DNA of 64,000 nucleotides, taken from NCBI GenBank assembly GCA_044229975.1, contig JBGARZ010000003.1, forward strand, positions 352,001-416,000, read 5' to 3'. The translations under genes and the position numbers were made by a program. Below, piece by piece: positions 11,319 through 57,168 of this stretch (its first letter is position 1; each line of letters opens with the position of its first letter). The notes beneath the pieces are model-generated. The model saw only the letters and a list, made by a program, of their open reading frames with translations, did not search any database and was not told the origin of the DNA. Source of the stretch: Polyangiales bacterium. Lineage in GTDB: Bacteria > Myxococcota_A > Polyangia > Polyangiales > Ga0077539.

Positions 11319-11392
11319 GGCCCGCAGACCATACAGCGTTGGCGGGGGCGTTGCTGGCCATCGCGCGATGGTGGTATGCGCCCGTCTCGACC

Positions 11393-12358
11393 ATGCGACT
11401 CGCGACGCTTCGAGATGGTTCCCGTGATGGCGCGCTGATCGTGGTGATGCCGGACGGCAGGCACTACCGCCCGGCGCAGGCGGCCGCTCCCACGCTGCAG
11501 GCCGCCCTCGACCTTTGGGAGTCCGCCAGCGAGCGCCTCCAGGCCATCGCCCAGGGCGGCGACGAAGCGCTCCCGCTCGACCCCGCGCGCCTGCACTCGC
11601 CGCTGCCCCGCGCCTACGAGTGGATCGACGGCTCGGCCTACCTCAACCACGTCCGCCTCGTCCGCAAGGCGCGCAACGCCGAGCCCCCAGCCACACTGGA
11701 GACCGATCCGCTCATCTACCAGGGCGGCTCGGGGACCTTCCTCGGTCCGCGTGACGCGATGCCCTTGCGCGACCCGGCGTGGGGCCTCGACTTCGAGTCC
11801 GAGGTGGCCGTGGTGCTGGGCGACACCCCGATGGGGACGTCCGCCGCCGACGCGGCGAAGTACGTGCGGCTGGTGATGCTGGTCAACGATGTCACGCTGC
11901 GCAACCTCATCCCCGACGAGCTCGCGAAGGGCTTCGGGTTCTTCTGCTCCAAGCCCTCGACGGCGTTTTCGCCCTTCGCGCTGACGCCCGACGAGCTGGG
12001 CGACGCGTGGCAGGGCGGGCGCGTTCACCTGCGGTTGAAGACCGAGCTCGACGGCTCCGTTGTGGGCGACACCGACGCGGGCCCCGAGATGCACTTCTCC
12101 TTCTTCGATCTCATCGCCCACATCACGAAGTCCCGCGCGCTCACCGCCGGCACCATCCTCGGCAGCGGAACCGTCTCCAACGTCGACCGCGCTCGCGGCA
12201 TCTCCTGCCTCGCCGAGCGACGGATGCTGGAGATCATCGAGTCGGGCAAACCCGCGACGCCCTTCCTCAAGGCGGGGCAGACCGTTCGCATCAGCATGGC
12301 CGACGCCCACGGGCGCGACCTCTTCGGTGCCATCGAGCAGACGGTGGAGTCGGTATGA
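11393..12358 (+). CDS. Fumarylacetoacetate hydrolase family protein
   Basis: MRLATLRDGSRDG, PLPRAYEWIDGSAY, LDFESEVAV, LVNDVTLRNL, GTILGSGTVSN; sits with maiA and hmgA. Confidence 0.9.
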   Translation: MRLATLRDGSRDGALIVVMPDGRHYRPAQAAAPTLQAALDLWESASERLQAIAQGGDEALPLDPARLHSPLPRAYEWIDGSAYLNHVRLVRKARNAEPPATLETDPLIYQGGSGTFLGPRDAMPLRDPAWGLDFESEVAVVLGDTPMGTSAADAAKYVRLVMLVNDVTLRNLIPDELAKGFGFFCSKPSTAFSPFALTPDELGDAWQGGRVHLRLKTELDGSVVGDTDAGPEMHFSFFDLIAHITKSRALTAGTILGSGTVSNVDRARGISCLAERRMLEIIESGKPATPFLKAGQTVRISMADAHGRDLFGAIEQTVESV

Positions 12359-12999
12359 AGCTCTACAACTACTGGCGAAGCTCGGCCTCCTGGCGCGTTC
12401 GCTTCGCCCTCGCCTACAAGAACATCCCCTTCGAGTACGTCCCCGTCTCGCTGGTGAAGGACGGCGGCGAGCAGCACGGCGACGCCTACCGCGCGCTCAA
12501 CCCCATGGCACAGGTGCCCACCCTGGAGTGGGTCGAGGGCGGAGAGACGCTGCGCCTCGGGCAGTCGCTCGCGATCATCGAGTTCGTCGACGGGCGCTTC
12601 GGCGGGCCGAAGCTCCTGCCCGAGAGCCCCTTCGTGCGCGCGAAGGTCCGGCAGCTCGCCGAGATCGTCAACGCGGGCATCCAGCCGCTGCAGAACCTCG
12701 AAGTGCTCCGCTACGTGCGCGAAGACCTCAAGGGCGACAGCACCGCCTGGGCGCGGCACTTCGTCGGCCACGGCATCCGCGCGCTCGAAGCCGAGGCCGT
12801 GCACACCGCGAGCACCTATCTCGTCGGCGACGCCGTGACCCTCGCCGACTGCTGCCTCGTGCCGCAGCTCTACGCCTGCCGGCGCTTTGGCGTCGACGTG
12901 TCGGAGTGCCCGACGCTGCTGCGGGTCGAGGCCGCGCTCCACGCCCTCGACGCGTACAAGGTCTCGCGCCCCGAGGCGCAGCCCGACGCCCAACCGTAG
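12355..12999 (+). CDS. maiA: Maleylacetoacetate isomerase (GST zeta class)
   Basis: ATGA overlap with upstream gene; MKLYNYWRSSASWRVR, QVP, QSLAII, GIQPLQN. Confidence 0.92.
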   Translation: MKLYNYWRSSASWRVRFALAYKNIPFEYVPVSLVKDGGEQHGDAYRALNPMAQVPTLEWVEGGETLRLGQSLAIIEFVDGRFGGPKLLPESPFVRAKVRQLAEIVNAGIQPLQNLEVLRYVREDLKGDSTAWARHFVGHGIRALEAEAVHTASTYLVGDAVTLADCCLVPQLYACRRFGVDVSECPTLLRVEAALHALDAYKVSRPEAQPDAQP

Positions 13000-13036
13000 A
13001 CCCCTCCCACTCCCCCTTCGGAGAGCGACACCACCC

Positions 13037-14200
13037 ATGCTCGAACGCATCGTCCACGGAGAGGTTCCGGCGAAGCACCACATCGCGTCGCGCGGCCCCG
13101 ACGGCGCCCTGCGCCACGAGGAGTGCATCACCCGCGAGGGCTTCGACGGCCCGTACACCATCGCGTATCACCTCGACCGCCCGCACACGCACCGCCCCGT
13201 CGAGAGCGCCCACGGCTGGCCCGCGCCCGAGGCCGTCGCCCCCGCCGCCGCGCTCCGCAAGCGGCACTTCCTCACGCAGTCCATGACCCCGCGCCGCGGC
13301 CCCGCGGTCGACGCCCGCACGCCGCTGCTCTTCAACGACGACGTGGTGGTCTCGGCCGCCTTCCCCGACGCCGACGACCCGGTCTACGTCTCCAACGGCG
13401 ACGGCGACGACCTCATCTTCGTGCACGCGGGCGGCGGCGTCGTGCGCTCCATCCTCGGCGACCTGCCCTTCGGCCCCGACGACTACGTGTGCATCCCGCG
13501 GGGCATCCCGCATCGCATCATCCTCACGCCGGGCGTCGCGCAGCACTGGCTCGTCATCGAGTGCCGCGGTGGGCTTCATCTCCCGAAGCAGTGGCGCAAC
13601 GAGGTCGGCCAGCTCCGCATGGACGCGCCGTACTGCCACCGCGACTTCCGCCCGGTGAGCTTCCGCGGCCCGCTCGACGAGGGCATCCGCACGGTGCTCG
13701 TGAAGCGCATGGACCGCTTCCACGCCTTCGCGCTCGACCACTCGCCGCTCGACGTCGTCGGCTGGGACGGCTCGGTCTATCCCTTCGTCTTCCCCATCCT
13801 CAACTTCCAGCCCCGCGCGGGGCTCGTGCATTTGCCGCCCACATGGCACGGCACCTTCGCGGCGCGCGGCGCGCTCATCTGTTCGTTCGTCCCGCGCATG
13901 GTCGACTTCCACCCCGAGGCCATCCCCTGCCCGTACCCGCACAGCTCGGTCGACTGCGACGAGGTGCTCTTCTACGTGCGCGGCAACTTCACGTCGCGGC
14001 GGGGTGTCGGGCCCGGCAGCGTGTCGTACCATCCGCAGGGCATCGCCCACGGCCCCCACCCGGGCGCCTACGAGGGCAGCCTCGGATCACGCCAGACCAG
14101 CGAGCTCGCCGTGATGATCGACACCTTCAAGCCCCTGTCGGCGACGCCGTTCGCGGTGCCAGTGGAAGACCTTTCGTACCAGGGCAGCTTCATCGCATAG
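13037..14200 (+). CDS. hmgA: Homogentisate 1,2-dioxygenase
   Basis: REGF, NGDGDDLIF, SPLDVVGWDG, HLPPTWH, FVPR, PYPHSSVDCDE, HGP motifs. Confidence 0.9.
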   Translation: MLERIVHGEVPAKHHIASRGPDGALRHEECITREGFDGPYTIAYHLDRPHTHRPVESAHGWPAPEAVAPAAALRKRHFLTQSMTPRRGPAVDARTPLLFNDDVVVSAAFPDADDPVYVSNGDGDDLIFVHAGGGVVRSILGDLPFGPDDYVCIPRGIPHRIILTPGVAQHWLVIECRGGLHLPKQWRNEVGQLRMDAPYCHRDFRPVSFRGPLDEGIRTVLVKRMDRFHAFALDHSPLDVVGWDGSVYPFVFPILNFQPRAGLVHLPPTWHGTFAARGALICSFVPRMVDFHPEAIPCPYPHSSVDCDEVLFYVRGNFTSRRGVGPGSVSYHPQGIAHGPHPGAYEGSLGSRQTSELAVMIDTFKPLSATPFAVPVEDLSYQGSFIA

Positions 14201-14233: not shown

Positions 14234-16336
14234 GTGGAATCCACCGCCAACCGAGGACAACGCATCGCCCAGCGCTTCGAGCTCGACGCCCTCCTCTCGG
14301 ACGTCGGCCTCGGTGAGTGCTGGAGCGCGCAGGATCTCCAGCGCCCCGACTCTCCGGCGCAGGTGGAGTTCTTGAGCGCGCCGACGGCGAGCGGCCCGGC
14401 GACGCGTGAAGCCTTCGAGGCGCACATCACGCGGCTGCGCCCGGTGAGCAACCCCGGCCTCCTCGGGGTCATCGCCGGCGCCGAGGTGGACGGTCGGTTG
14501 GTGGTGGTGACCGAGCGCCTCGAAGGCCGCTCGCTCTCCAACTGGATCGCCGGGCACAAGCAGGCGGGCACCCGACCGAGCTTCACGGTGGTGCAGCGCA
14601 TCTTCGACAAGGTGTGCAACGCGATGCAGTTCGCCCACGGGGTGTCGCCGCAGCCGGTGGTGCACCGCGCGCTCACCCCGCGCAGCATCCTCCTGCGTCG
14701 GATGAGCCCGGGGCAGCACCACGTGAAGGTCGGCGACTTCGGGCTCGCGCCGTTTTCGCCGGGCGCGCGCACCGGCACCATCGGCGCGTGGTGGGAGTAC
14801 CAGGCCCCCGAGCAGCACGGCGGCCGCTGGAACGAACCGCCCACCGCCGACGTCTTCGCCCTCGCGGTGGTGCTCACCGAGCTGCTCACCCTCTCCGCGC
14901 TGCCGCGCTCGGAGGGCCGCGAGACCTGGTGGCAGTACGTCAAGGAGAGCCGGGCCTCGGCCGCCGATCGCCTGCTGCAACTCCGGCAGGATGTTCCGCG
15001 CGCGGTGTGGGAGGCCATCGGGGCCGCGATGAAGCCGTCGCCCAAGGAGCGCACCGCGTCGGTGCAGCGCTTCCAGCGGGCCGTCCGCGACGCGTGGCAG
15101 GCCGCCGGCGAGTGGCAGACCACCGCGGGCACCGAGGCCGAACCACCGACTCCCACCAGCGTCTCGGACAACACCTCGCTCGTCCGCGCAGCGCCAGGGG
15201 CCTACGGCTCGGGCACCTCCATCGACGGCTGGCAGGCCCCCGAACGCCTCCAGGTTCCGCAATCGCCGACGCGACCCTCGATGCCCGACCCGGCGCCCGC
15301 GCGGTCGTCCGAGCCGCTGATGCACTACCCCGAGGCGCCCTTCGCGACGCCGGTCGATCCGCCCCAGTGGCAGCCCGCGCCCGCCAACGCCGCGCCCGCG
15401 CTACGTCAGGCCGTCTCCGAGTCGACGGAGATGATCGACCTCGCCCAGCACGGCGCCTTCACGCGCCCCTCCATCGATTCGCTGGTGCGGCAGGAGAGCA
15501 CCATGGCGCTCGACATCGCGTCGCTCGACCCGCGCTCGTTCGCGCACCCCGCCAACCAGTACGGCACCGTCGTCGAGGGACAGCACCCGTCGTCGATGCT
15601 CTTCGGTGACTCCTTCGAGGGTGGCTCCGACCTCGACCCGGGCGTCGGCACCCAGGTGATGTCCCAGCCCCTCGGCGGCGACACCGAGCCGCCTCCGCCC
15701 GACCCCTACGACGACGTCCCGCCGCCCGACGCGTCCAACACCACCCGCGCCATCGACACGGCCGAAGCCTTCGCGCAGCTCGATCGGCAGGCCGGTCGGC
15801 CCCCGGCCGCGGCCATGGCCACCATGAAGGCCCCCGTCTCGTCGCGCGGGTTCAAGCCCACCGCGCCGCGCCGCGACCCGGTCGACCCCGACCTCCTCGC
15901 GACCCGACCCATGCAGGCCATCCGCCCGGCGACCATGGCGCCCAACGGCTTCTTCCCTTCGGCCGTGCAGCCCGGCGGCGACCCGTCCGGTGACCCCTTT
16001 GCGCGCCCGTCGCTCTCGGGTGACCCCTTCGGCGGCGACCCCTTTCGCCCGGCCTCGTCGGTTCCGTCGCAGCCGCCCGTCGAACCCACCATGGCCATCC
16101 CCATCGAGGCCATGCTCGCCGGGTCGCAGCCCCCCTACGGTCGTCCGTCCAACCCGGGCGCGCCGATGCCCACAGCTTTCGCGATGGGCGCCCCGCCGCG
16201 CACGTCCGAGTCCCTCTCGTCGCCGAAGCCCGCGTCCACCATCGCAGGCCAGCCCGCCTGGATCATGATCGCCATCGGCCTGCTCATCATCGTGAGCGTC
16301 GGCGCGTCGGCCTTCCTGCTCTCGGGCGGTCGCTGA
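14234..16336 (+). CDS. Ser/Thr kinase-like protein (probable pseudokinase) with Pro-rich linker and C-terminal TM helix
   Basis: Hanks-type motifs VKVGDFG, YQAPEQ, ADVFAL present; HRD replaced by HRA, VAIK replaced by AQVE; C-terminal WIMIAIGLLIIVSVGASAFLL. Confidence 0.8.
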   Translation: MESTANRGQRIAQRFELDALLSDVGLGECWSAQDLQRPDSPAQVEFLSAPTASGPATREAFEAHITRLRPVSNPGLLGVIAGAEVDGRLVVVTERLEGRSLSNWIAGHKQAGTRPSFTVVQRIFDKVCNAMQFAHGVSPQPVVHRALTPRSILLRRMSPGQHHVKVGDFGLAPFSPGARTGTIGAWWEYQAPEQHGGRWNEPPTADVFALAVVLTELLTLSALPRSEGRETWWQYVKESRASAADRLLQLRQDVPRAVWEAIGAAMKPSPKERTASVQRFQRAVRDAWQAAGEWQTTAGTEAEPPTPTSVSDNTSLVRAAPGAYGSGTSIDGWQAPERLQVPQSPTRPSMPDPAPARSSEPLMHYPEAPFATPVDPPQWQPAPANAAPALRQAVSESTEMIDLAQHGAFTRPSIDSLVRQESTMALDIASLDPRSFAHPANQYGTVVEGQHPSSMLFGDSFEGGSDLDPGVGTQVMSQPLGGDTEPPPPDPYDDVPPPDASNTTRAIDTAEAFAQLDRQAGRPPAAAMATMKAPVSSRGFKPTAPRRDPVDPDLLATRPMQAIRPATMAPNGFFPSAVQPGGDPSGDPFARPSLSGDPFGGDPFRPASSVPSQPPVEPTMAIPIEAMLAGSQPPYGRPSNPGAPMPTAFAMGAPPRTSESLSSPKPASTIAGQPAWIMIAIGLLIIVSVGASAFLLSGGR

Positions 16337-16388
16337 CGCGCGGGGCGCATTGACGCCGCACCGGGCCCTGTGATGCCATCCGAGACCG

Positions 16389-16796
16389 ATGCCCCCAGCC
16401 GCTCGCCTTGGTGACAACCACGTCTGCCCGAAGGTCGAACCCGGCCCCGTCCCTCACGTCGGCGGCCCCATCCTCCCGGCGTGTGAGCCCACGGTGCTCA
16501 TCGGCAACAAGGCCGCCGCCCGCGTCGGCGACATGGCCCAGTGCAACGCGCCCCCCGACAGCATCAAGATGGGCGAGCCCACGGTGCTCATCAACAACAA
16601 GCAGGCCGCCCGCCTCGGTGACCCCACCAACCACGGCGGGGTGATCGTTCAGGGAGAGCCCACCGTGCTCATCGGGTCGGTCTCGCAGGGCGCCGTGCTC
16701 AAGGCCGCCGCGAAGGCCGGCGTGCCGTTCTGCGAAGAGTGCGAGAAGGCCAGGGCGCGCATGCGCAACTCCACGGCCACCGCCGCGGCCCACTGA
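16389..16796 (+). CDS. PAAR domain protein with C-terminal PFCEEC tail
   Basis: PPAARLGDNHVCP, AAARVGD, QAARLGD..HGG repeats. Confidence 0.92.
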   Translation: MPPAARLGDNHVCPKVEPGPVPHVGGPILPACEPTVLIGNKAAARVGDMAQCNAPPDSIKMGEPTVLINNKQAARLGDPTNHGGVIVQGEPTVLIGSVSQGAVLKAAAKAGVPFCEECEKARARMRNSTATAAAH

Positions 16797-16836
16797 GCGT
16801 CTGCCGAGCGCTCCCTCTCCTCCAACACCGCCCACC

Positions 16837-17397
16837 GTGTCCGAACGACCCGAGTTCACCGATCGCATCGAGCATGTACGGTGGGTGCTACAGCAGCACC
16901 CGGCGCCGATGTTCGCGCTCGTCGACGCGGCCCGCGACGACCTCGTGCTGCCGACGGTGCTCCAGTCGGGTCTGCTCCACCGCTCGCTCTACGAAGGCTG
17001 GCAGGGCGAAGGGCTGTCGGACGTGGCGCCCTACCTCGTCGAGGTCCGGTCAGGTGACCCCTTCCTCGACACGCTCCTCGAACGCGGCTGGGGCGATAGC
17101 TGGGGGACGTTCCTGTTTTCGACGGAGGACTTCTTCTCGCTGCGCCGCCACCTCCGGCGCTTCTTGAAGGTGCAGTCCGAGGACGGCAAGAAGCTCTTCT
17201 TCCGCTACTACGACCCGCGCGTGCTCCGCAGCTACCTCCCGACGTGCACCCCCGACGAGCTCGCCCACTTCATGGGCCCCATCTCCTGGTGGGTCACCGA
17301 GGGCCACCGCGGCGAGACCCTGCTGCGCTTCACCCGCGGCGACGACGGCGTGCGCTGCGACACCGAGCCGCTGCCCGAGCCGCCGCCCGACCGCTGA
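16837..17397 (+). CDS. DUF4123 T6SS effector adaptor/chaperone
   Basis: FALVDAAR, SLYEG, APYLVE, WG, HLRRFL, FFRYYDPRVL. Confidence 0.88.
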   Translation: MSERPEFTDRIEHVRWVLQQHPAPMFALVDAARDDLVLPTVLQSGLLHRSLYEGWQGEGLSDVAPYLVEVRSGDPFLDTLLERGWGDSWGTFLFSTEDFFSLRRHLRRFLKVQSEDGKKLFFRYYDPRVLRSYLPTCTPDELAHFMGPISWWVTEGHRGETLLRFTRGDDGVRCDTEPLPEPPPDR

Positions 17398-17426
17398 CCC
17401 TCCCTCCCCCTGCCACAAGGCGCGCC

Positions 17427-18332
17427 ATGATCCTCAACCTGACGATCCTCAACGGAACCCACGCGGGCCACGCGGTGCAGATCTCCGCCGGCACGCCTCG
17501 CACCTTCGGCCGCGCGGCGCAGTCCGACGTGGTGCTCCAGGACGTCTACCTGTCCGACGTGCACTTCGCCCTCTACTGCGACGAGCAGGGCGCTCGCGTG
17601 CGCGACCTCCAGTCCCACAACGGAACCTTCCTCAACAACGCCCAGGTCACCGACGCCACGCTCAACAGCGGCGACCGCATCTCGGCCGGGCAGACCCTGT
17701 TCGAGGTCGCCCTCACCAGCCACGTTCTGGAGGTCCCCCCGAGCGCCGGCACCGACACGGGCGAGATCACCGCCGAAGACCTCATGCGCGGGATGCAGAG
17801 CGCCCCGCACGACTGCGCCCGCTGGGCCCTGCACGCCGAGGAGGGCAACTACTTCGCGATCATCGACTGCGCGCGCGGGCCCGACCTCATCACGCTGGTC
17901 AACCGCATCGAGGAGGAGTTCTGCGCCGTCGACGAGACGCGCGAGCCCGACGACCTCGGCGAGACGGCGCCCTTCCTCGTCGCGCTCACCCCGGCGTCGG
18001 ACGGCCTCGCCGACGTCTTCGAGGAGACCTGGGGCAACGGGTCGGCGATCTTCCTGGTGAGCGATCGACCGTTCATCGAGATCTACCAGCACCTCATCTC
18101 GCTGGTGACCTGGGACGATCAGGCCCGCCTCAACTCGGCGCCCTTCTGGGACCCGGCGCGCCTCGCCGATCACCTCGCCCGCTGCACCCCGGAGCAGGTC
18201 GAGCACTTCTTCGCGCCGCTCACCTGCCTCCTCGCCGAGAGCAACGACCCCCGGGTGATGACCCGCTACGCCCGCTCCCCCGAAGGCGCCGTCACCGCGA
18301 CCCCCATCGCGATGACCCTCCAGAACGCGTAG
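17427..18332 (+). CDS. FHA domain - DUF4123 fusion protein
   Basis: N-terminal FHA (TFGR, LSDVHF, DLQSHNGTFLN, LNSGDRI); C-terminal FAIIDCAR, APFLVAL, WG, HL, FWDPARL. Confidence 0.82.
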   Translation: MILNLTILNGTHAGHAVQISAGTPRTFGRAAQSDVVLQDVYLSDVHFALYCDEQGARVRDLQSHNGTFLNNAQVTDATLNSGDRISAGQTLFEVALTSHVLEVPPSAGTDTGEITAEDLMRGMQSAPHDCARWALHAEEGNYFAIIDCARGPDLITLVNRIEEEFCAVDETREPDDLGETAPFLVALTPASDGLADVFEETWGNGSAIFLVSDRPFIEIYQHLISLVTWDDQARLNSAPFWDPARLADHLARCTPEQVEHFFAPLTCLLAESNDPRVMTRYARSPEGAVTATPIAMTLQNA

Positions 18333-18343
18333 CCCGCGCGACC

Positions 18344-19144
18344 TCAGCGCAGCCCGCGCAGGCTCCCCTCGAAGCGGCCCACCATGATCGGAAACCGCAC
18401 CGCCTTGCCCTCCTCGTCGGGCTCGGTGCGCACCACCCCGCGGCCGTCCTTCGCGACGCACTCCAGCATCCGTCCGCCCGCGACCAGTCGATAGTCGAAC
18501 TGCTCGGCCACCAGCGGCGCCATCGCAAACGTCGGCTCGGCGAACATCTCGGCCAGCGCGGCCTCCGCGGCACGCTGCCGATCGGCCAGCGCCACGTCGA
18601 AGGCGATGCACACCTCGCGGTGGGCGATCTCGTTGTGCGCCCAGAACCCCGGGAAGCTCTTGCGCGCCAGGGCGCCGTGCATCGACTGCACGTAGCGCGT
18701 GGCCTCCTGCAGGAGCGCGCCGTCCATCTGAAGCACCTCTGCCCGCTCCCACGCCCAGGGCCCGAGGACGTCCTCGAACACGTGGGTCGCCCGCACCACG
18801 CGCGGAAACTCCAACGCACCATCGGCGAGCGTCTCGCCGAAGCGGAAGAGCGAGACCGTGTCGGGCTCACCCGGCTGCGTCCCCGGCGGGCAGCGCGCGG
18901 CATGCACCTTCACCGCGACGCCATCGCCCGGCAGCGTGCGCTTCTCGGTGCGGGCCACCGACGGCGTGGAGCCCGGGTTGATCACCACCTCGAAGAGGTT
19001 CTCTCCGCGAATGAGAACGTGATCGACCTGATGCATTCCCCCGCCGGCCGCCGCGGGCACCCGGAAGATCGGGATGTCATTGACCCAGACCTCGACGTCA
19101 CAGCCCTCGACGTCGACGTCGAGCACCACCAATGAGCGCGCCAT
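18344..19144 (-). CDS. Hypothetical protein, candidate T6SS immunity or accessory protein
   Basis: 266-aa ORF directly downstream of the candidate effector in the vgrG operon; role inferred from position only. Confidence 0.6.
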   Translation of the reverse strand: MARSLVVLDVDVEGCDVEVWVNDIPIFRVPAAAGGGMHQVDHVLIRGENLFEVVINPGSTPSVARTEKRTLPGDGVAVKVHAARCPPGTQPGEPDTVSLFRFGETLADGALEFPRVVRATHVFEDVLGPWAWERAEVLQMDGALLQEATRYVQSMHGALARKSFPGFWAHNEIAHREVCIAFDVALADRQRAAEAALAEMFAEPTFAMAPLVAEQFDYRLVAGGRMLECVAKDGRGVVRTEPDEEGKAVRFPIMVGRFEGSLRGLR

Positions 19145-19166
19145 ATCGAATGAACCCTCTTTGGTC

Positions 19167-20837
19167 CTATCCAGGGAAGCGGAGCGGGCCGCCGATCTTG
19201 GTCTTCTGCATCACCATGTAATCGACGTCGGCGTCGATGAAGGAGACCACCACCGCCTTGCCCTTCAGGGTGATGCCCTTGAACTCGATCTTGCTCACCA
19301 TGATGCCGAGGCCCTGCTGGTCGAAGCCGACGTTGCCGTCCGTCTCGAAGCCGGTCTCCACGCCCGCCTTCAACGAGAGCACGCGATCATGGATGAGCAT
19401 CCCCTTCGCGTAGAGCGACGCCGGGATGTCGCTCTTGAAGCGAGCGTGCTTCCACTCTGCTTCCTTGATGGACTTGCGCTCGATGTCCTGAGACACCGTC
19501 AGGCTGCCGTCGATCTTTCCTTCGATGCCGGCCGTGAAGCCATAGCCCTTGATGGTCAGGTCGACGCCGAAGCCCACGCTGAAGGTCACCTTCACCAGCA
19601 CGAGGCGAACCGCGATGGAGTAGCCGAAGAACACCCGGTTATCGATCGACTCCTTGAAACCCCAGGTGGCCTTGAGCGAGCCCGTGAGCACCTCGACGCC
19701 GAAGGCCCAGTCCCAGCCCACCTTGGGCTTGTACTTCTTGATCGCGTCGTTCACGGCCGTGATGGCCGCGGCGATGTTGCGGAAGGTGTTGATCGCGGTG
19801 AGGATCCAGTCGAGACCCATCACCTTCACGTCGTTGCGCTTGAGCTCAACCTTGACGCGCGTTTCGATGTCCGTAGAGCCCTTGTCGTCAGGCCCCATGG
19901 TGCCCGGCGCGCGCGGGCCCACGGGCTTGTTCTCCGCCGTGCCCTTCCACTCCACCGTGCCGTTGTTGTTGGTGCGCGTGGCCGTCGCCGTCGCCGTGGT
20001 GTTCCGCAGGGCGACCGAGGCCGACCCGGTGGTGGTGACGACCCGGCCGCCGCCCGCCGTGTTGATGCCGTGCTTGATCGACGCGCTGAAGAACGACGGC
20101 GACGAGATCGACAGCTCCCACTGGTCATCGGGGTACGCCCGGATGACCGTGTGCTGTGAGCGCACCGCCGCGCCGACCTTGCGCCCGCCGCAGACCAGCG
20201 CCGAGATGCGATAGTCCTGATAGCCCCAGCGCACCGGCCAGATGTCGACGAAGCTGCCGACCTTGAGCCAGCCGATCTTCGCGTCGTCGGCCGCGCGCAC
20301 CTTGCGAAACACCGCCAGCGCGTGGGTCTTCTGTCCCTTGAACGTGGTCGCCTTCCCCAGCGGGTCGGTCAGCACCAGGTGCGGGTGCGTAAACTCCCCG
20401 CAGAACTGGTAGTCCTCTTCGATGACGATATCGAGATAGGTCTTGCGGGTATCCCGGGGGGAGCCCGCGGTCACCTCGATGATGGTCCCGGTGACGTAGG
20501 GGCTCGCCGTCTTGGTGCCCCGCGAATGGATCACGAAGGCCTGCGGCAGGAAGCGCTCCTTCGGCGGGGTCTCGTTGCCCACCCACGGCGCGTGCCCCTT
20601 GCCCACCTTGCGCTCGGTGAGCTTGAGGTCCTTCAGGTCACACAGGTTGACCTTGATCGGGAGCCCGCAGGGGAGCGTCCCCGTTCGCTGCGTGGGGCTC
20701 TGGCAGAGCCTCGCCTGCGCGTCCCGCTGGGCCGCCGCTCGTTGCGCCGCCGCCCGCTGCGCCGCCGCCCGCTGCGCCGCCCGCTGCTTCGCGAGGTCAG
20801 CCTCGGAAGGGCCGAAGAAATAGTCGTAGAGACCCAT
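19167..20837 (-). CDS. Candidate T6SS effector (beta-strand-rich C-terminal half)
   Basis: 556-aa Lys/Gly-rich ORF two genes downstream of vgrG, near DUF4123 adaptors; no recognised domain. Confidence 0.6.
   Translation of the reverse strand: MGLYDYFFGPSEADLAKQRAAQRAAAQRAAAQRAAAQRDAQARLCQSPTQRTGTLPCGLPIKVNLCDLKDLKLTERKVGKGHAPWVGNETPPKERFLPQAFVIHSRGTKTASPYVTGTIIEVTAGSPRDTRKTYLDIVIEEDYQFCGEFTHPHLVLTDPLGKATTFKGQKTHALAVFRKVRAADDAKIGWLKVGSFVDIWPVRWGYQDYRISALVCGGRKVGAAVRSQHTVIRAYPDDQWELSISSPSFFSASIKHGINTAGGGRVVTTTGSASVALRNTTATATATRTNNNGTVEWKGTAENKPVGPRAPGTMGPDDKGSTDIETRVKVELKRNDVKVMGLDWILTAINTFRNIAAAITAVNDAIKKYKPKVGWDWAFGVEVLTGSLKATWGFKESIDNRVFFGYSIAVRLVLVKVTFSVGFGVDLTIKGYGFTAGIEGKIDGSLTVSQDIERKSIKEAEWKHARFKSDIPASLYAKGMLIHDRVLSLKAGVETGFETDGNVGFDQQGLGIMVSKIEFKGITLKGKAVVVSFIDADVDYMVMQKTKIGGPLRFPG
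20727..20789 (-). repeat. 15-bp coding tandem repeat (QRAAA units)
   Basis: Plus-strand gccgccgcccgctgc-type units encode KQRAAQRAAAQRAAAQRAAAQR. Confidence 0.7.
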
Positions 20838-20847
20838 CGGACGCTCC

Positions 20848-21231
20848 TCACTCCTCGGTCGCGTCGAGCGCGCCGAGCATGTCCTCGCAGAGCGCCTCGA
20901 CGCGCTCCATCAACTGGTCGACCTTCATCCGCCCGTCGAGACCTTCGCTCGTCAGCGTGTCGTTGGCCCAAGGCAGGTTGGGGTCTTCGTCGAACTGGGG
21001 GTGCAACAGCAACATCACGTCGCAGTAGCGCCCCACGTCGTACTCCGTGTCGATCTCGTACCGCGCGCAGCGCTCCATGCCGTGGGCGACGAAGCGCTCC
21101 AGGCCCTCCTCGCCCATCGCCGCGCACTCCTCGGGCCACACCCGTCGGAGGTGCGCGGTGACGTTCTCCACGAAGGGGTCCATCGCCGCGCGGGCGAGGG
21201 CGTCCATCTGCGCGCTGCGAATGACCAGCAC
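20848..21231 (-). CDS. Small VgrG-associated protein, possible co-chaperone
   Basis: 127-aa acidic helical ORF between vgrG and the candidate effector (MLVIRSAQMDAL...FDEDPNLPW). Confidence 0.65.
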   Translation of the reverse strand: MLVIRSAQMDALARAAMDPFVENVTAHLRRVWPEECAAMGEEGLERFVAHGMERCARYEIDTEYDVGRYCDVMLLLHPQFDEDPNLPWANDTLTSEGLDGRMKVDQLMERVEALCEDMLGALDATEE

Positions 21232-21238
21232 GTCGATC

Positions 21239-23947
21239 TCAGTGCGGCAGGAACAGCCGGTCGACCTGCTTGCCGATCACGCTGTCGAGCTGCTTCACGG
21301 CCTGCGCCGCGAGCTTCGCCGCCTGCGGGGGCAGGCCACGCCGGTCGATCCACCCTTGCAGCACCTCGCGACCCGCCGTCACCGCCGGGCCCTTGAGGAA
21401 GGCCGCGACGTCCGCGCCGTTGCGCTGCTTCAGCACCGTCCAGAACGGGTCGCGCGCCATGCCCTGATCGAGCCCCACCGCGCGCAGCGTGCCCCACGTC
21501 GCCGCGGTGGTGGTCACGCCCTTCAGCTCCTTCACGAGCCCGGAGAGCAGCGGGCTGTTCTTCACCCGGGGGTTGTTCTCCAGGCCCTTGAAGGCCTGGC
21601 CGACGAGGCCCTTCACCCCTTCGGTGATGGCCTCTTCGCCCGCCTTGAGCGCCGCGTCCTTGATCACCCCGAAGTTGGGCTTGCGGCCTTCCTTCAGCGC
21701 TGAGGCGAGCTCGGTCACGGTGGTCTTCGCGAGCCCCTGGAGGCGCTCGGAGATCTTGTCCGGCACGCCCGCCTTCGCGAGCAGCTTCTTCAGCCCCGCG
21801 CTCGCCTGCTCGCCCAGCTTCGCGGGGTCGATGGCGTTCTTCAGCTTGGCCAGCAGACCCCCAGAGGTGCCCTGGAGGCTCACCGCGGCCGCGACGGCGG
21901 TCTCCTGCGGCGCGACGGTGTTGCTGTCCGTCTCGCCGCAATTGATCTTCACCAGCGCGCCGTTGATGTTCACCAGCGACCCGCCGATGACGTGAATGGT
22001 CGGCGAGTTGATGGTGATCTTGTTGGGCAGCAGCATGATGCTCGACTCGCCCACCTTGAAGCCCATGCTCGACTCGGCCGTGACCGCGAAGTGCGTGTCG
22101 ACCCGCAGCGACGCGCCCGCCCCGCCGTGCACCGCGATGGAGCTGTTGCCCTCCACGTCCAGCGAGTCGTTCTGCACGATGCTGGTGATGCGGTCCTTCT
22201 GGACGGTGACGTGCTCGATGCCCTGGATGGTCTTGGTGCGGTCGTGGCCCACCACCAGCGTCTGGTCGTGGCGCACCACCGAGTCCATGTCGCGCTGCGC
22301 GTGGATGAAGATCTGCTCGTTGTCCTTGAGGTCTTCGAAGCGCAGCTCGTTGAAGCCCGCGCCGCCCTTCGACGAGCTCGTCTTGATGGTGCTCTTGGTC
22401 TTCTCCGCGGGCAGCGGGTACGGCGTGTTGTTCTCGCCGTTGTAGACGCAGCCCGTGACGAGCGGGCGGTCGGGGTCACCTTCGAGGAAGGTCACCACCA
22501 CCTCCATCCCGATGCGCGGGATGAACATCGAGCCCCACGCCGCGCCCGCCCAGCTCTGCGCCACGCGCATCCAGCACGACGACTTGCTCCCGTTCTGCGA
22601 CGGGCCGCGCATCTCGGGGCGATCCCAGTGGAAGCGCACCAGGATGCGCCCATGGAAGTCCGTCGAGATCTCCTCGTCGTCCTCGCCCGGCGCCGCGATC
22701 ACGAGCGCCGTCTGCGGCCCGTGCACCAGCGGCCGCGGGGTGTCCCGCTCCGGCCGGATCGGGGTGTCCGACGCCACGCACTCGAAGCGGTTCCAGTAGC
22801 GGGTGGCCATCGCGGCGCCGGCGGTGTCCGCGACGCTCTCCCACTCCGGCTCGATGTTGCGCAGCAGCGCCTTCACGTGCTCGCTCGTGCGGATGTCGTC
22901 GGGGATGTCGCCCCAGGCCGCGACGTGGTGCTGCACCCCGAGGAGCACATAGTTGCGATCGAGCTCGGGCCGCTGGTGGCCGGTGATGGTGATGCCGCGG
23001 CCGGGCCAGAAGCCCGTCACCGAGCTGCGGCCGTGACCGACCTTGTTCTCCACCTGCGTCTCGTCGAAGCGCACGCGCGCCCGGCGCTGACCGTGGTGCG
23101 GGCGATAGACGTGCGCATCCTCGTCGTAGGCGCCGAGGGTGAAGCGCGCGGGGTAGTCGTAGACGGGACGGGCGCCGCCATCACCGGGGCTGCGCGGGCT
23201 CATGTCGAGCACGGCGCGCGGGTGCGTGAAGTCGAAGTCGCGCAAGAGCACCCCGGTGGTGCCAGTGCGACGGTGCCAGTCGAACCACATCACGGTCTCG
23301 GCGCCCGACGTGGCCGACCCGGCGCCATCGATGATGCTGATGGCCCCGCCATCCATCGTCGGAACGGCCTCCCACGGGTGCCCGTCCTCCACGAGCTGCC
23401 AGGTCTCCGAATCGCCGTCGTGCTTGAAGTAGAACGCGACGCCCTCCTCTTCGAGCAGTCGCTGCACGAAGTCGAGGTCGGTCTCGCGGTACTGGAGGCA
23501 GTTTTCGCGCGGCGGGAGCTGGTCGAGCGCGCCCTCGTAGGCCATCGCCCCGTCACCCTGGTAGACGCCCGCGTCCTTGAGCACCTCCTGGATGATCGTG
23601 ATGACGTTGACGTCCTGCCAGATGCGCGAGTTGACGCGCTTGGACAGCTTCCAGAGGTGCGGAACCACCACGATGCGGGCGAAGCGGTACATGCCCGTCG
23701 ACCCGAGGTCTTCGACGCGGCGCACGACGCCCTTCAGCGGGCGCGAGACCGAGCCGCGCTGGATGTCGAGGCTGACGTTGCGCTCGAAGAGTTCTTCGAC
23801 GTTGGCGCCCACGTTGCGGTTGGCGAGGATGAGCGAGGCCTCGTAGAGCCGCGACATCCCCTCGTCGATGAACACGTGCACCGGACGCCAACCGCCACCG
23901 GGGCCCTCGAAAACAAGCTCAACCTCGGCGCGCGGCGCTTCGCTCAT
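21239..23947 (-). CDS. vgrG: Type VI secretion spike protein VgrG (TssI) with C-terminal extension
   Basis: QYRETDLDFVQRLLEEEG, DFDFTHP, GPQTALV, GRILVRFHWD, SCWMRVAQSWAG, IPRIGMEVVVTFLEGDPDRP, NELRFED, IHAQRDM. Confidence 0.95.
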   Translation of the reverse strand: MSEAPRAEVELVFEGPGGGWRPVHVFIDEGMSRLYEASLILANRNVGANVEELFERNVSLDIQRGSVSRPLKGVVRRVEDLGSTGMYRFARIVVVPHLWKLSKRVNSRIWQDVNVITIIQEVLKDAGVYQGDGAMAYEGALDQLPPRENCLQYRETDLDFVQRLLEEEGVAFYFKHDGDSETWQLVEDGHPWEAVPTMDGGAISIIDGAGSATSGAETVMWFDWHRRTGTTGVLLRDFDFTHPRAVLDMSPRSPGDGGARPVYDYPARFTLGAYDEDAHVYRPHHGQRRARVRFDETQVENKVGHGRSSVTGFWPGRGITITGHQRPELDRNYVLLGVQHHVAAWGDIPDDIRTSEHVKALLRNIEPEWESVADTAGAAMATRYWNRFECVASDTPIRPERDTPRPLVHGPQTALVIAAPGEDDEEISTDFHGRILVRFHWDRPEMRGPSQNGSKSSCWMRVAQSWAGAAWGSMFIPRIGMEVVVTFLEGDPDRPLVTGCVYNGENNTPYPLPAEKTKSTIKTSSSKGGAGFNELRFEDLKDNEQIFIHAQRDMDSVVRHDQTLVVGHDRTKTIQGIEHVTVQKDRITSIVQNDSLDVEGNSSIAVHGGAGASLRVDTHFAVTAESSMGFKVGESSIMLLPNKITINSPTIHVIGGSLVNINGALVKINCGETDSNTVAPQETAVAAAVSLQGTSGGLLAKLKNAIDPAKLGEQASAGLKKLLAKAGVPDKISERLQGLAKTTVTELASALKEGRKPNFGVIKDAALKAGEEAITEGVKGLVGQAFKGLENNPRVKNSPLLSGLVKELKGVTTTAATWGTLRAVGLDQGMARDPFWTVLKQRNGADVAAFLKGPAVTAGREVLQGWIDRRGLPPQAAKLAAQAVKQLDSVIGKQVDRLFLPH

Positions 23948-28800: not shown

Positions 28801-29235
28801 CTACCAAGAAGCGCAGTACGGGCCACGACACGTCTCTGCGATACTGCTCCTTTCGCCGATGCCAGGACATGCGGCCCGCCACGACTCATACATGGCATCA
28901 AGTTCTTGCGTCCAACGGTGCCTCTCCTGTCGAGTCGAGTGCCGCCGAGGCGCCAGTCCCCACTCGACAAAGCGCCGCCGTCCATGGACAGATGTGACGT
29001 AATATTCTCGATCAGGAGTGCTGTCTGCGCAAATGAACCCTTGCCCTTCAGCCCGACAGGCCATCGGGCTGGGTATCCGTCGTTTCTCCAAGTCGTGCAC
29101 GACACATTGGTCGTCGAACGACGCAGATACCGGCACTCTGCGAACGAGGCCATCTACTGCGTAGCCGGAGCCGCAAGCCAACGCCATCGCGGCGATCACC
29201 GACGCAAAGCAGATGCCACGCAAGCGATTAGTCAT
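28801..29235 (-). CDS. Putative lipoprotein immunity protein of the Rhs toxin tip
   Basis: ATG overlaps the Rhs stop (ATGA); lower GC; signal/lipobox MTNRLRGICFASVIAAMALAC. Confidence 0.65.
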   Translation of the reverse strand: MTNRLRGICFASVIAAMALACGSGYAVDGLVRRVPVSASFDDQCVVHDLEKRRIPSPMACRAEGQGFICADSTPDREYYVTSVHGRRRFVEWGLAPRRHSTRQERHRWTQELDAMYESWRAACPGIGERSSIAETCRGPYCASW

Positions 29236-30990
29236 CTTGGACACGAAATAGTAAAAGGACGGGGATTGACTATATCGCTGTACGGCCCTCTCTCCATGAA
29301 GTTCCACCGTGACAAGGGATCTCCACCTGGAAGGTCTTGGTCTCGGTTGCCAGGATTCACCCGATCCTGCACCGTCGAAATAAGCAGAGAGCTCCCCTGC
29401 CCGAGCAAACTCGCTGGTCCGAAAAACCAGCCCAGCAGTTGAGACTGCACGATGTGCTGATGCTCATGCTTGAGCAAGAGATAGGATGGATCCTCCCCCC
29501 GGATGAAGACCACGTTTCCGATCGTGTATGCCTGCTGGTTCCCGGAGGGAACGCCACTATTGTAGACATATATTGCGTAATCCGAGTATCCGCGACTCTC
29601 TTCCTCAGACCAGGGCTGAACGTCGACGTATGAATTCGGGCTATCACTATCGATCACGTGCCATACCAAATAAGCCCACAGGTTTGTGGGGCCCTCCCAG
29701 ATCGCATCCAAGTGACCTCCCCACATTTCACGCTCCTCACCAGCATGCAGACCCGTACGATCGACCGCGTTAACCGGGTCCCCCGCCACATATGCGTACA
29801 GATTCCGCCCATCGACCGCATCCCGCTCCCCCAGTGGATCCCTGGTGAGCCACTGCCGCAGCCGCGGCGAGTACACCCGTGCCGGCGCGAACACCAACCC
29901 CGTCGGCCGATGCACCACATGCCCGGTGAAGCCCATGTGCGTGTCGTACACCCCGAGCCCGCTGCCGGGCGCCGTCACCGTCTGCTCTCCCCACACCCCA
30001 TAGCGGTACGTCCGCACCCGATCGCCAGCGAGCGTCAGCCCCATCACGCTGCCGCGCACATCGCGCATCATCGCCAGGTGCTCGCCCCCCTGGTCGATCC
30101 CGTCCGCCCGGTAGACCCGCTCGATGGGCGTCTCCCCCGACTCCTCGATGCGCTCGCTCCGCAGCGTCCAGCCCCGCCACCGCAGCGTCACCGTCTGCGC
30201 GCCCTCCACCATCGACGTGAGCCGCCCGGTCGCGTCATAGCCGAAGGTCCAGCTCGCGCTGTCCGACACCCGCGTCACGCCCGTCAGCCGATCGCGCACG
30301 TCCCAAGCATAGGTGTACTCCCCGTCGCCCGTCACCCGACCGCGCGCGTCGTGCGTCAGCGTGTGCGTCGGTGACGCGCTCGGCCCCATCGCCCGCGTCA
30401 GCAGCCGGTCGCTCACCGAGAACGTCCGCCCCTCGATGACGTTCCACCCCCAGCCGCTTCCCCAGTCCTGATAGCGGTCGATGAGCGTCGTGTTGCCCCA
30501 CGCGTCGTAGTAGCTCCAGTTGCCGCTCTCCTGCACGTACGTTCCCGCGCCGTTGTTGACGTACTCCGAGTGAAACGACACCCGCCGCGCCGCGTTGTAG
30601 TAGGTGTACCGCCAGAGCACGTCGTCCCGCTCCGAGTTCACCCGTCCGTCGGCCGTGAACTCCAGCTCCGTCAGGCCCTGCCGCTGACTCGTCGTCGCGT
30701 TGAGCGTGCGCGCTCGCCACATCCGCAGGTCGTCTGACGTCGACTGGTAGAGGAAGTCCTGCACGCAGTTGGTGCGCGGCAGCGCCGCGAGCGACGGGCG
30801 GCGGGTCGTCGCCCCCGAACCGAAGGTGTAGCTGAGCACCGTCGCTGGGGGCGACGTCGCGTTGTTGACGAGGCCCGTCAGCCGGTCCGCCGAGTCGTAC
30901 TGGTAGGTCAGCGTCTCGCCGTCGTGCGTCACCGACGCGGCCCGACCGAGCACGTCGTGGGTAAACGACGCCGTGTCGGAGTCCGTCAGC
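29232..30990 (-). pseudogene. 5'-truncated (orphan) Rhs repeat protein with HExxH toxin tip
   Basis: YD repeats (YQYDSADRL, YAWDVRDRL, YDATGRL), core GFTGH...ARVYSP...WLTRDP...NLYAYVAGDPVNAVDRTG; in-frame stop just upstream (~31006), no N-terminal delivery domain. Confidence 0.85.
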
Positions 30991-57080: not shown

Positions 57081-57168
57081 GGCCTCGCCTTTCACTCCGG
57101 CGCGGTCCGTCCACCGCGCACCATTGGGCGTCGGGTTGTACATCCTCCCGCGCCCCGAACGGAACCCG

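What the first reader, a model, noticed from the sequence alone, without database searches (positions are those of the whole stretch)
14234..23947. Orphan T6SS spike island in two convergent halves, with signalling components built in
Seen: plus strand pseudokinase-PAAR-DUF4123-FHA/DUF4123 converges on minus strand vgrG-127 aa protein-556 aa protein-266 aa protein; no sheath, baseplate or hcp genes are in the window. Established: DUF4123 adaptors load effectors onto VgrG/PAAR tails and usually lie directly upstream of their effector; in P. aeruginosa a PAAR-TecT-coTecT-TseT-TsiT set uses a PAAR tail and a small co-chaperone. Inference: the same parts are split here over two facing transcription units and joined by a kinase-like protein and an FHA domain, suggesting regulated effector loading.
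Basis: partly seen in the sequence, partly recalled or inferred. Interest (0 to 1): 0.7.

Follow-up and report, generated by a model that had tools for sequence, protein, structure and literature searches.

The report
Split-adaptor toxin-loading locus in myxobacteria

Summary
All eight genes are real and as described, and the genome carries a full T6SS gene set elsewhere. The locus is an orphan spike/effector island that likely works like P. aeruginosa PAAR4–TecT–co-TecT–TseT–TsiT. The 186-aa DUF4123 is an N-lobe-only adaptor, and the PAAR tail (PFCEEC) always precedes such a gene. The 127-aa protein belongs to a large family with no Pfam match (9,583 clusters). It co-occurs with DUF4123 in 31 of 31 family genomes, directly follows it in a paralogous operon ahead of a pesticin-like toxin, and is fused to 556-aa homologues in Betaproteobacteria. 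It is the likely effector-binding second lobe. The 556-aa and 266-aa proteins are the likely effector and immunity. Convergence is only one of several layouts (exact in 6 of 21 genomes; halves apart in 5), so it is not a design feature. The kinase is catalytically dead by motif and loosely linked. The FHA-fused second DUF4123 is conserved across five genera and usually keeps its phosphothreonine-binding residues, but its ligand is unknown. Verdict: new variant of a known kind.

The parts
14234..16336 (+). Membrane-anchored Ser/Thr pseudokinase (N-terminal kinase fold, Pro-rich linker, C-terminal hydrophobic helix at about aa 677-697); loosely linked, also follows the hmgA gene by 33 bp
   Evidence: Pfam Pkinase; HRA for HRD and E for K, in a 25-member all-dead clade with FastTree support 0.993; hydropathy 2.6; linkage
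16389..16796 (+). PAAR spike tip with a C-terminal tail 'AAxxGVPFCEEC' (two cysteines), the likely docking site for the DUF4123
   Evidence: PF05488; tail gene directly upstream of a DUF4123 gene in 20 of 20 loci printed and 2 of 2 own-genome cases; tail profile in 30 of 46 outside loci, on VgrG, PAAR or other proteins
16837..17397 (+). DUF4123 adaptor consisting of the conserved N-lobe only (TecT-like)
   Evidence: PF13503 aa 26-143, 117 bits; 186 aa against 245-308 aa for six full-length DUF4123 proteins from plasmids
17427..18332 (+). FHA domain fused to a second, divergent, acidic DUF4123 (pI 4.4; the basic RRHLRRF and RYYDPR motifs are replaced)
   Evidence: FHA Arg 16/16, Ser 13/16, His 16/16, Asn 10/16 (read from alignment); strong hits only in the own family among 251 sampled genomes
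18344..19144 (-). 266-aa protein without a hydrophobic signal or membrane segment, predicted beta-sandwich plus NTF2-like domain; likely immunity protein or partner of the 556-aa protein
   Evidence: AF2 pLDDT 89.9; best VIA Z 8.1, rmsd 3.1 over 101 residues to an NTF2 domain; follows 556-family genes or domains in the window family, Rubrivivax and three giant proteins
19167..20837 (-). 556-aa candidate effector: N-terminal helix and TLPC motif, Ig-like domain (about aa 60-245), C-terminal amphipathic beta-rich region
   Evidence: no Pfam, PDB or Atlas match; model pLDDT 59; beta amphipathicity z 3.8-5.3 in 18 of 18 homologues; same slot holds a Pesticin-domain gene in the paralogous operon
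20848..21231 (-). 127-aa acidic protein of a large unnamed family; likely the separately encoded effector-binding lobe (co-adaptor) of the DUF4123
21239..23947 (-). VgrG spike with a conserved basic, amphipathic helical C-terminal extension of about 210 aa and no known family
   Evidence: TIGR03361 476 bits; tail alignment of 13; no Pfam or PDB match; pI 10.1; helical moment z 2.9

Best explanation
This is an orphan T6SS spike island whose DUF4123 adaptor is likely split into two genes: the 186-aa N-lobe would grip the cysteine-pair tail of PAAR, the 127-aa protein would act as the missing second lobe and hold the 556-aa candidate toxin, and the 266-aa protein would protect the producer. Shown: the genes, their domains, a complete core T6SS gene set elsewhere in the genome, and genome-wide co-occurrence of the parts. 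Inferred: (1) PAAR tail to DUF4123 binding, from invariant adjacency and the published N-lobe mechanism; (2) the 127-aa protein bridging adaptor and cargo, probably through an N-terminal V/L-x-P-C segment of the cargo; (3) the loaded PAAR capping the co-located VgrG, fired by the core machine in trans; (4) the 556-aa protein damaging a target membrane with its amphipathic beta strands (low confidence). The acidic FHA-DUF4123 most likely is a second adaptor facing the basic VgrG tail (by charge and position only). The pseudokinase is at most an accessory scaffold. The convergent order is one outcome of gene shuffling in a family whose T6SS genes are scattered anyway.
For: Core genes: tssE,J,K,L,M,tagF,tssA,B,C,H together on contig C39, tssF,G on C11, three orphan hcp. 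The 127-aa family and DUF4123 are both present in 22 and both absent in 9 of 31 family genomes; TssC is in those 22 plus one. A paralogous operon in another genus is collinear: PAAR-DUF4123-127aa-Pesticin toxin-second DUF4123, facing vgrG. Outside the family, 28 of 46 DUF4123 loci carry a 127-family gene within 8 kb, against 5 matches in the 10-Mb own genome. Rubrivivax and relatives fuse the domain to a 556-like protein between vgrG and a 266-like gene (hhalign 94% and 91%). One protein fuses DUF4123 to two copies of it. It aligns end to end, weakly, with the small gene of a PAAR-DUF4123-X-Tox-REase-5-Imm52 locus (12.7 bits, shuffle maximum 5.3). Its divergence tracks the 556- and 266-aa proteins more than the DUF4123 (partial r 0.68, 0.78, 0.37; 13 related genomes). 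15 of 32 genes downstream of a 127-family gene have PC in the first 80 residues against 3.8% background (pattern chosen after seeing it, kin not independent). Complex prediction DUF4123 + 127-aa: weak support, score 0.52, best control 0.00, runs agree in at least 72% of contacts, partner pLDDT at least 81; 116 of 157 solved and 2 of 215 mismatched pairs reached the mark, but only 18 solved pairs and both mismatches did so at 0.60 or under. PMC11582642 (Discussion read) describes TecT/co-TecT as a split DUF4123 and a conserved cysteine pair in the docking motif.
Against: No binding or toxicity is measured. The 127-aa profile matched 0 of 6 C-lobes of full-length DUF4123 proteins. The co-TecT-like match falls to 7.7 bits with a deeper profile (shuffle maximum 4.1) and hhalign gives only 63%. 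The DUF4123 fusion is one singleton sequence on one contig. In genus g2 several loci keep the 127- and 266-aa genes without the 556-aa gene, and five g2 loci have a 556-like gene with no 266-like neighbour; a stand-alone 266-like paralogue is widely kept, which is unusual for a simple immunity gene. A membrane-attacking toxin would often have a membrane or exported immunity protein, and the 266-aa protein has no hydrophobic segment. The 556-aa model is poor in the C-terminal half.
Confidence: 0.68

Rival explanations
1. Phospho-gated loading: the FHA domain holds the second DUF4123 on a phosphothreonine partner, and the membrane pseudokinase acts as scaffold or allosteric switch, so that cargo is loaded only on a signal.
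For: FHA binding residues are kept in most of 16 orthologues. The FHA fusion is kept in five genera, in three genomes the first DUF4123 also carries an FHA, and FHA-DUF4123 fusions occur in 6 of 46 outside loci. The kinase belongs to a dead clade whose members flank spike genes at the window, at two other own loci and at the g2 paralogue. Kinases are direct neighbours of own spike genes 4 times in 31 against 0.83 expected (p 0.009). The core cluster has tagF and an orphan tagH-like gene exists.
Against: The kinase cannot be the writer by motif. The neighbour excess vanishes at two or more genes' distance (p 0.08-0.35). Of 10 clade members fetched by kinase similarity, 1 was next to a spike gene, 7 were not and 2 were uninformative. 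The paralogous operon has the second DUF4123 without FHA. The kinase stays behind hmgA while genes insert between it and PAAR.
Confidence: 0.2
2. The 556- and 266-aa proteins are not toxin and immunity but structural or co-secreted accessory parts of this spike (a co-effector pair), and the actual toxins are the PAAR or VgrG extensions and other cargo genes scattered behind 127-family genes.
For: The 266 family is in 23 and the 556 family in 20 of 31 genomes, with uncoupled copies. PAAR orthologues carry CHAP-like or VgrG3-like lysozyme domains after the tail. The VgrG has its own conserved 210-aa extension.
Against: The slot after the 127-aa gene holds a recognisable toxin domain in the paralogue. 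The 556-aa protein diverges faster than the adaptors (61-69% against 76-92% in congeners). 556-like domains end giant proteins that are followed by 266-like genes, the polymorphic-toxin pattern.
Confidence: 0.17
3. The two halves are independent islands that merely landed next to each other.
For: They are unlinked in 5 of 21 genomes examined.
Against: They are adjacent in some order in 16 of 21, co-occur in all genomes that have either, and are collinear in the paralogue. The minus half has no adaptor and the plus half has no cargo.
Confidence: 0.07

Closest known systems
P. aeruginosa PAAR4-TecT-co-TecT-TseT-TsiT (Burkinshaw 2018; not read, known here through the Discussion of PMC11582642 and passages of PMC7376260)
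   Same: PAAR with a C-terminal extension, N-lobe-only DUF4123, a small separate protein before the effector, then effector and a downstream gene. Weak end-to-end similarity of the 127-aa family to the small gene of a homologous Janthinobacterium locus.
   Different: The effector is not Tox-REase-5 and the downstream gene not Imm52. There is a second, FHA-fused DUF4123 and a dedicated long-tailed VgrG. The parts are on two strands or two loci.
Bilobed DUF4123 (Tap/TEC) adaptors, PMC11582642 (passages and Discussion read)
   Same: Conserved N-lobe; docking motif with a cysteine pair on the spike protein encoded just upstream.
   Different: No C-lobe in the same chain; the tail is on PAAR here; the 127-aa profile did not match six full-length C-lobes.
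FHA-DUF4123 fusions, PMC7714669 (passages read)
   Same: FHA is reported as the commonest extra domain of DUF4123 proteins (1.1%), mechanism undetermined.
   Different: Here the fusion is a divergent acidic second copy in tandem with a canonical DUF4123; the passages read do not describe that. Supplements were not read.
Threonine phosphorylation pathway PpkA-Fha1/TagH-PppA (passages of PMC13584744)
   Same: A membrane-anchored kinase fold and an FHA protein near T6SS genes.
   Different: The kinase lacks catalytic residues, the FHA protein is not TagH (17.8 bits against cut-off 120), and no phosphatase gene was seen in the locus.
MIX/FIX-type stand-alone or fused targeting domains, PMC10673891 (passages read)
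   Same: The 127-aa domain occurs alone, doubled, or fused to the N-terminus of a candidate effector in vgrG loci.
   Different: No Pfam or NCBIfam match; it could not be tested against the CDD models that paper used.

Membership tests
Orphan (auxiliary) T6SS vgrG/PAAR island | VgrG with hub, OB and trimerisation domains | tested here: met
   TIGR03361 476 bits over cut-off 186; PF05954, PF04717, PF22178
Orphan (auxiliary) T6SS vgrG/PAAR island | PAAR tip gene | tested here: met
   PF05488 88.8 bits
Orphan (auxiliary) T6SS vgrG/PAAR island | Core T6SS genes absent from the locus but present in the genome | tested here: met
   tssA,B,C,E,H,J,K,L,M on C39; tssF,G on C11 outside the window; three hcp
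Orphan (auxiliary) T6SS vgrG/PAAR island | Effector-immunity pair | tested here: inconclusive
   Position and pairing fit; no family match; uncoupled copies exist
Split DUF4123 adaptor (TecT/co-TecT type) | DUF4123 protein with N-lobe only | tested here: met
   186 aa, domain aa 26-143, against 245-308 aa full-length forms
Split DUF4123 adaptor (TecT/co-TecT type) | PAAR C-terminal extension directly upstream of the adaptor gene | tested here: met
   PFCEEC tail, 20 of 20 loci printed
Split DUF4123 adaptor (TecT/co-TecT type) | Separate small co-adaptor homologous to co-TecT | tested here: inconclusive
   12.7 and 7.7 bits, above shuffles; hhalign 63%; compared with a positional homologue, not PA3906 itself
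Split DUF4123 adaptor (TecT/co-TecT type) | Physical adaptor-co-adaptor-effector complex | not testable with these tools
   Only a prediction with weak support for the adaptor pair (0.52, best control 0.00)
TseT/TsiT effector family | Tox-REase-5 effector with Imm52 | tested here: not met
   No Pfam match for the 556- or 266-aa protein
PpkA-Fha1-PppA pathway | Catalytically intact kinase | tested here: not met
   HRA for HRD, E for K
PpkA-Fha1-PppA pathway | TagH/Fha1 protein | tested here: not met
   TIGR03354 17.8 bits, cut-off 120; a TagH-like gene lies at another own vgrG locus
Extracellular contractile injection system | Phage-type sheath gene in the genome | tested here: inconclusive
   PF04984 not found in a 93%-complete assembly; one family tested
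Beta pore-forming toxins (MACPF, gasdermin) | Shared fold of the pore-forming domain | tested here: inconclusive
   Best VIA Z 7.3, rmsd 6.0 over 90 residues, on a low-confidence part of the model

The most novel reading that the evidence does not exclude
The 127-aa protein defines a very large, unnamed family of free-standing second lobes that read a short N-terminal cysteine tag on unrelated cargo and plug it into N-lobe-only DUF4123 adaptors in trans, so one spike loads toxins encoded all over the genome. In this myxobacterial family a second, FHA-fused adaptor puts that loading step under phosphothreonine control, and the resident cargo is a new beta-type membrane toxin.
Probability: 0.22. 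Interest if true: 0.75.

Novelty: new variant of a known kind. Interest (0 to 1): 0.47.

Why it matters
If the 127-aa family is the free second lobe of DUF4123 adaptors, a domain with over 9,500 sequence clusters and no Pfam name becomes a new marker for finding T6SS effectors, including cargo far from vgrG genes, and the single studied co-TecT case becomes a general rule. The locus also offers a direct test of whether effector loading, not only machine assembly, can be regulated through an FHA domain, and a candidate toxin family shared by myxobacteria and Betaproteobacteria.

Tried and rejected
A word-index search for longer relatives of the 127-aa protein found none; the profile search did. 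Sequence searches of the PDB with the 127-, 556-, 266-aa and VgrG-tail alignments and the DUF4123 protein gave nothing significant. Foldseek gave no hit at E 0.001 for either model. The Atlas gave only unnamed clusters for the 127-aa protein and nothing usable for the 556-aa protein. A plasmid search with a doubled 127-family protein found no match. The promoter and terminator scan was at chance level. GC content shows only a mild dip over the 556-aa gene (0.63 against about 0.71), so recent acquisition of the whole island was not supported. The idea that the 127-aa protein matches C-lobes of ordinary full-length DUF4123 proteins failed for 6 of 6. The idea that convergence is conserved failed. 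Earlier scan notes had nothing relevant. In one search the automated check of the FHA Asn picked the wrong NGT; the count 10 of 16 was read by eye. In one search the script stopped after 20 loci. TseMt (passages of PMC13520059) is a helical colicin-like toxin and not a match. Seven literature searches listed no paper on this family or this locus by title or abstract start; subscription papers and supplements were not seen.

Full report
Observation. All eight ORFs exist at the stated place, with tight spacing inside each unit and 11 bp between the facing stops. The window is C11:352001-416000 of a 10.0-Mb, 93%-complete genome. The closest relatives carry Polyangiales or Myxococcales labels in their record titles.

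The machine in trans. TssC lies on C39 in a cluster tssE-J-K-L-M-tagF-tssA-B-C-H, tssF and tssG with a second Clp-type gene on C11 about 250 kb from the island, and three hcp genes stand alone. More than ten vgrG-like genes are scattered. A phage-type sheath was not found. So T6SS genes are dispersed throughout this genome, and an orphan island is the norm here.

Co-occurrence. In 31 genomes of the family, DUF4123 and the 127-aa family are both present in 22 and both absent in 9. TssC is in those 22 and one more. The 556 family is in 20 and the 266 family in 23. Kin are not independent: the pattern is five genera with and five without.

Gene order. I examined 21 of the 22 positive genomes; one fragmented genome was not fetched. 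The exact convergent layout with vgrG is in 6. It is consistent up to a contig end in 2 and present without vgrG in 1. In 7 the parts are adjacent but rearranged: the 127-aa unit diverges from PAAR, with the 556-aa gene and a converging vgrG or without both. In 5 the halves are apart. A paralogous locus in genus g2 is collinear: pseudokinase, PAAR, DUF4123, 127-family, a 360-370-aa Pesticin-domain gene, a second DUF4123 without FHA, facing a long-tailed vgrG. Convergence is therefore one state of a shuffled set, while the set itself persists.

The docking tail. The PAAR ends in AAKAGVPFCEEC. Genes with this motif sit directly upstream of a DUF4123 gene in 20 of 20 loci printed and in both own-genome cases, one of which is not a PAAR. 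Outside the family it is in 30 of 46 DUF4123 loci, on VgrG, PAAR or other proteins. PMC11582642 (passages and Discussion read) shows that the DUF4123 N-lobe binds a C-terminal spike motif with a conserved cysteine pair, that the C-lobe binds the effector, and that TecT and co-TecT are the two lobes as separate genes. In several relatives a CHAP-like or VgrG3-like lysozyme domain follows the tail.

The 127-aa protein. It has no Pfam or NCBIfam match, yet 9,583 clusters at 50% identity match its profile; 138 of the best 150 are tandem doubles. One of the 150 is DUF4123 fused to two copies, a singleton on one contig. In Rubrivivax and relatives the domain is fused to a 556-like protein between vgrG and a 266-like gene (hhalign 94% and 91%), and in that fusion it takes the place of the N-terminal helix and TLPC segment. 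It lies within 8 kb of DUF4123 in 28 of 46 outside loci. It aligns weakly but end to end with the 114-aa gene of a Janthinobacterium PAAR-DUF4123-X-Tox-REase-5-Imm52 locus, and not with six full-length C-lobes. Its divergence follows the 556- and 266-aa proteins more than the DUF4123. Genes behind 127-family genes are diverse, mostly unannotated, and 15 of 32 carry PC in the first 80 residues against 3.8% background (post hoc pattern). The complex prediction with the DUF4123 gave weak support: 0.52 against a best control of 0.00, runs agreeing in at least 72% of contacts, partner pLDDT at least 81; at 0.60 or under only 18 of 157 solved complexes and both passing mismatches of 215 reached the mark.

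Cargo and partner. The 556-aa protein has 13 close relatives in the word-index search and no family or fold match. The model is usable only for an Ig-like domain; the C-terminal part is beta-rich at low confidence. That part has strong alternating hydrophobicity in 18 of 18 homologues (z 3.8-5.3; rank 56 of 4,201 own proteins), which fits a membrane-inserting sheet but also any one-sided beta sheet. The 266-aa model is confident, a beta-sandwich plus NTF2-like domain. It follows 556-like genes across phyla and 556-like ends of giant proteins. Against a plain toxin-immunity reading, the two are uncoupled in genus g2 and a lone 266-like paralogue is widely kept.

Signalling parts. The FHA keeps Arg in 16 of 16, Ser in 13, His in 16 and Asn in 10 (by eye). 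Its DUF4123 has lost the basic motifs and is acidic, while the VgrG tail is basic; a pairing of the two rests on charge and position only. This second type gave strong hits only in the own family among 251 sampled genomes. FHA-DUF4123 fusions as such are on record (PMC7714669). The kinase is dead by motif and falls in a 25-member clade that all lack the catalytic Asp (support 0.993; 106 sequences, own kinases above 125 bits plus three added because they neighbour spike genes). Two of the four own members that entered by score flank spike loci, as does one of the added ones. Of 10 members fetched by kinase similarity, 1 is beside a spike gene, 7 are not and 2 are uninformative; two further top hits lie beside PAAR or vgrG by coordinates but were not in the tree. 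At the island itself the kinase is directly upstream of PAAR in 5 genomes, separated by inserted genes in 4, 47 kb away in one, and not beside it in most others. The link is more than chance but not obligatory.

Verdict. An orphan T6SS spike island that most likely loads its cargo through a split DUF4123 adaptor (0.68). It works like PAAR4-TecT-co-TecT but is not a member of the TseT family. New here are the large unnamed co-adaptor candidate, the tandem FHA-fused second adaptor and an unclassified cargo. Regulated loading stays a minority reading (0.2).

Noticed in passing
window 55527-57143 (-): A 538-aa protein with WGR, PARP regulatory and PARP catalytic domains, all over Pfam cut-offs: a eukaryote-like poly(ADP-ribose) polymerase architecture in a bacterium.
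   Followed up: no
window 29232-30953 (-): RHS-repeat gene in the lowest-GC kilobase of the window (0.59), about 5 kb from vgrG; it may be a truncated polymorphic toxin.
   Followed up: no
window 11339-14200 (+): fahA-maiA-hmgA homogentisate genes run into the pseudokinase with a 33-bp gap; this junction is kept in two genera.
   Followed up: partly
G000:C38:534030-535665 (L005): A 338-aa protein with two repeats (FIX-like by recall, no library match) ending in the PFCEEC tail, followed by the genome's third DUF4123 and facing a 1489-aa gene; kept in congeners.
   Followed up: partly
G000:C23:97305-98100, C33:225870-228915, C11:665890: Three more 127-family genes far from any vgrG, each directly ahead of a large unannotated gene: candidate cargo loaded in trans.
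   Followed up: partly
G000:C20:456397-465734 (L012): A second convergent island: vgrG-AHH nuclease-Imm11 facing DUF6484-DUF2169-ketoacyl-synthase-like-Tox-PAAR-like, flanked by a pseudokinase of the same dead clade.
   Followed up: partly
L027, L028, L030, L033, L035, L036, L037, L038: PAAR orthologues carry CHAP-like or VgrG3-like lysozyme domains after an internal PFCEEC motif.
   Followed up: partly
L080:11321-13639, L185:3797-7249: Genes behind 127-family genes with protein-arginine deiminase and weak subtilase domains: unusual candidate cargo.
   Followed up: no
window 3914-8106 (+): Two tandem T2SSE-family ATPase genes, the first with HEAT repeats.
   Followed up: no
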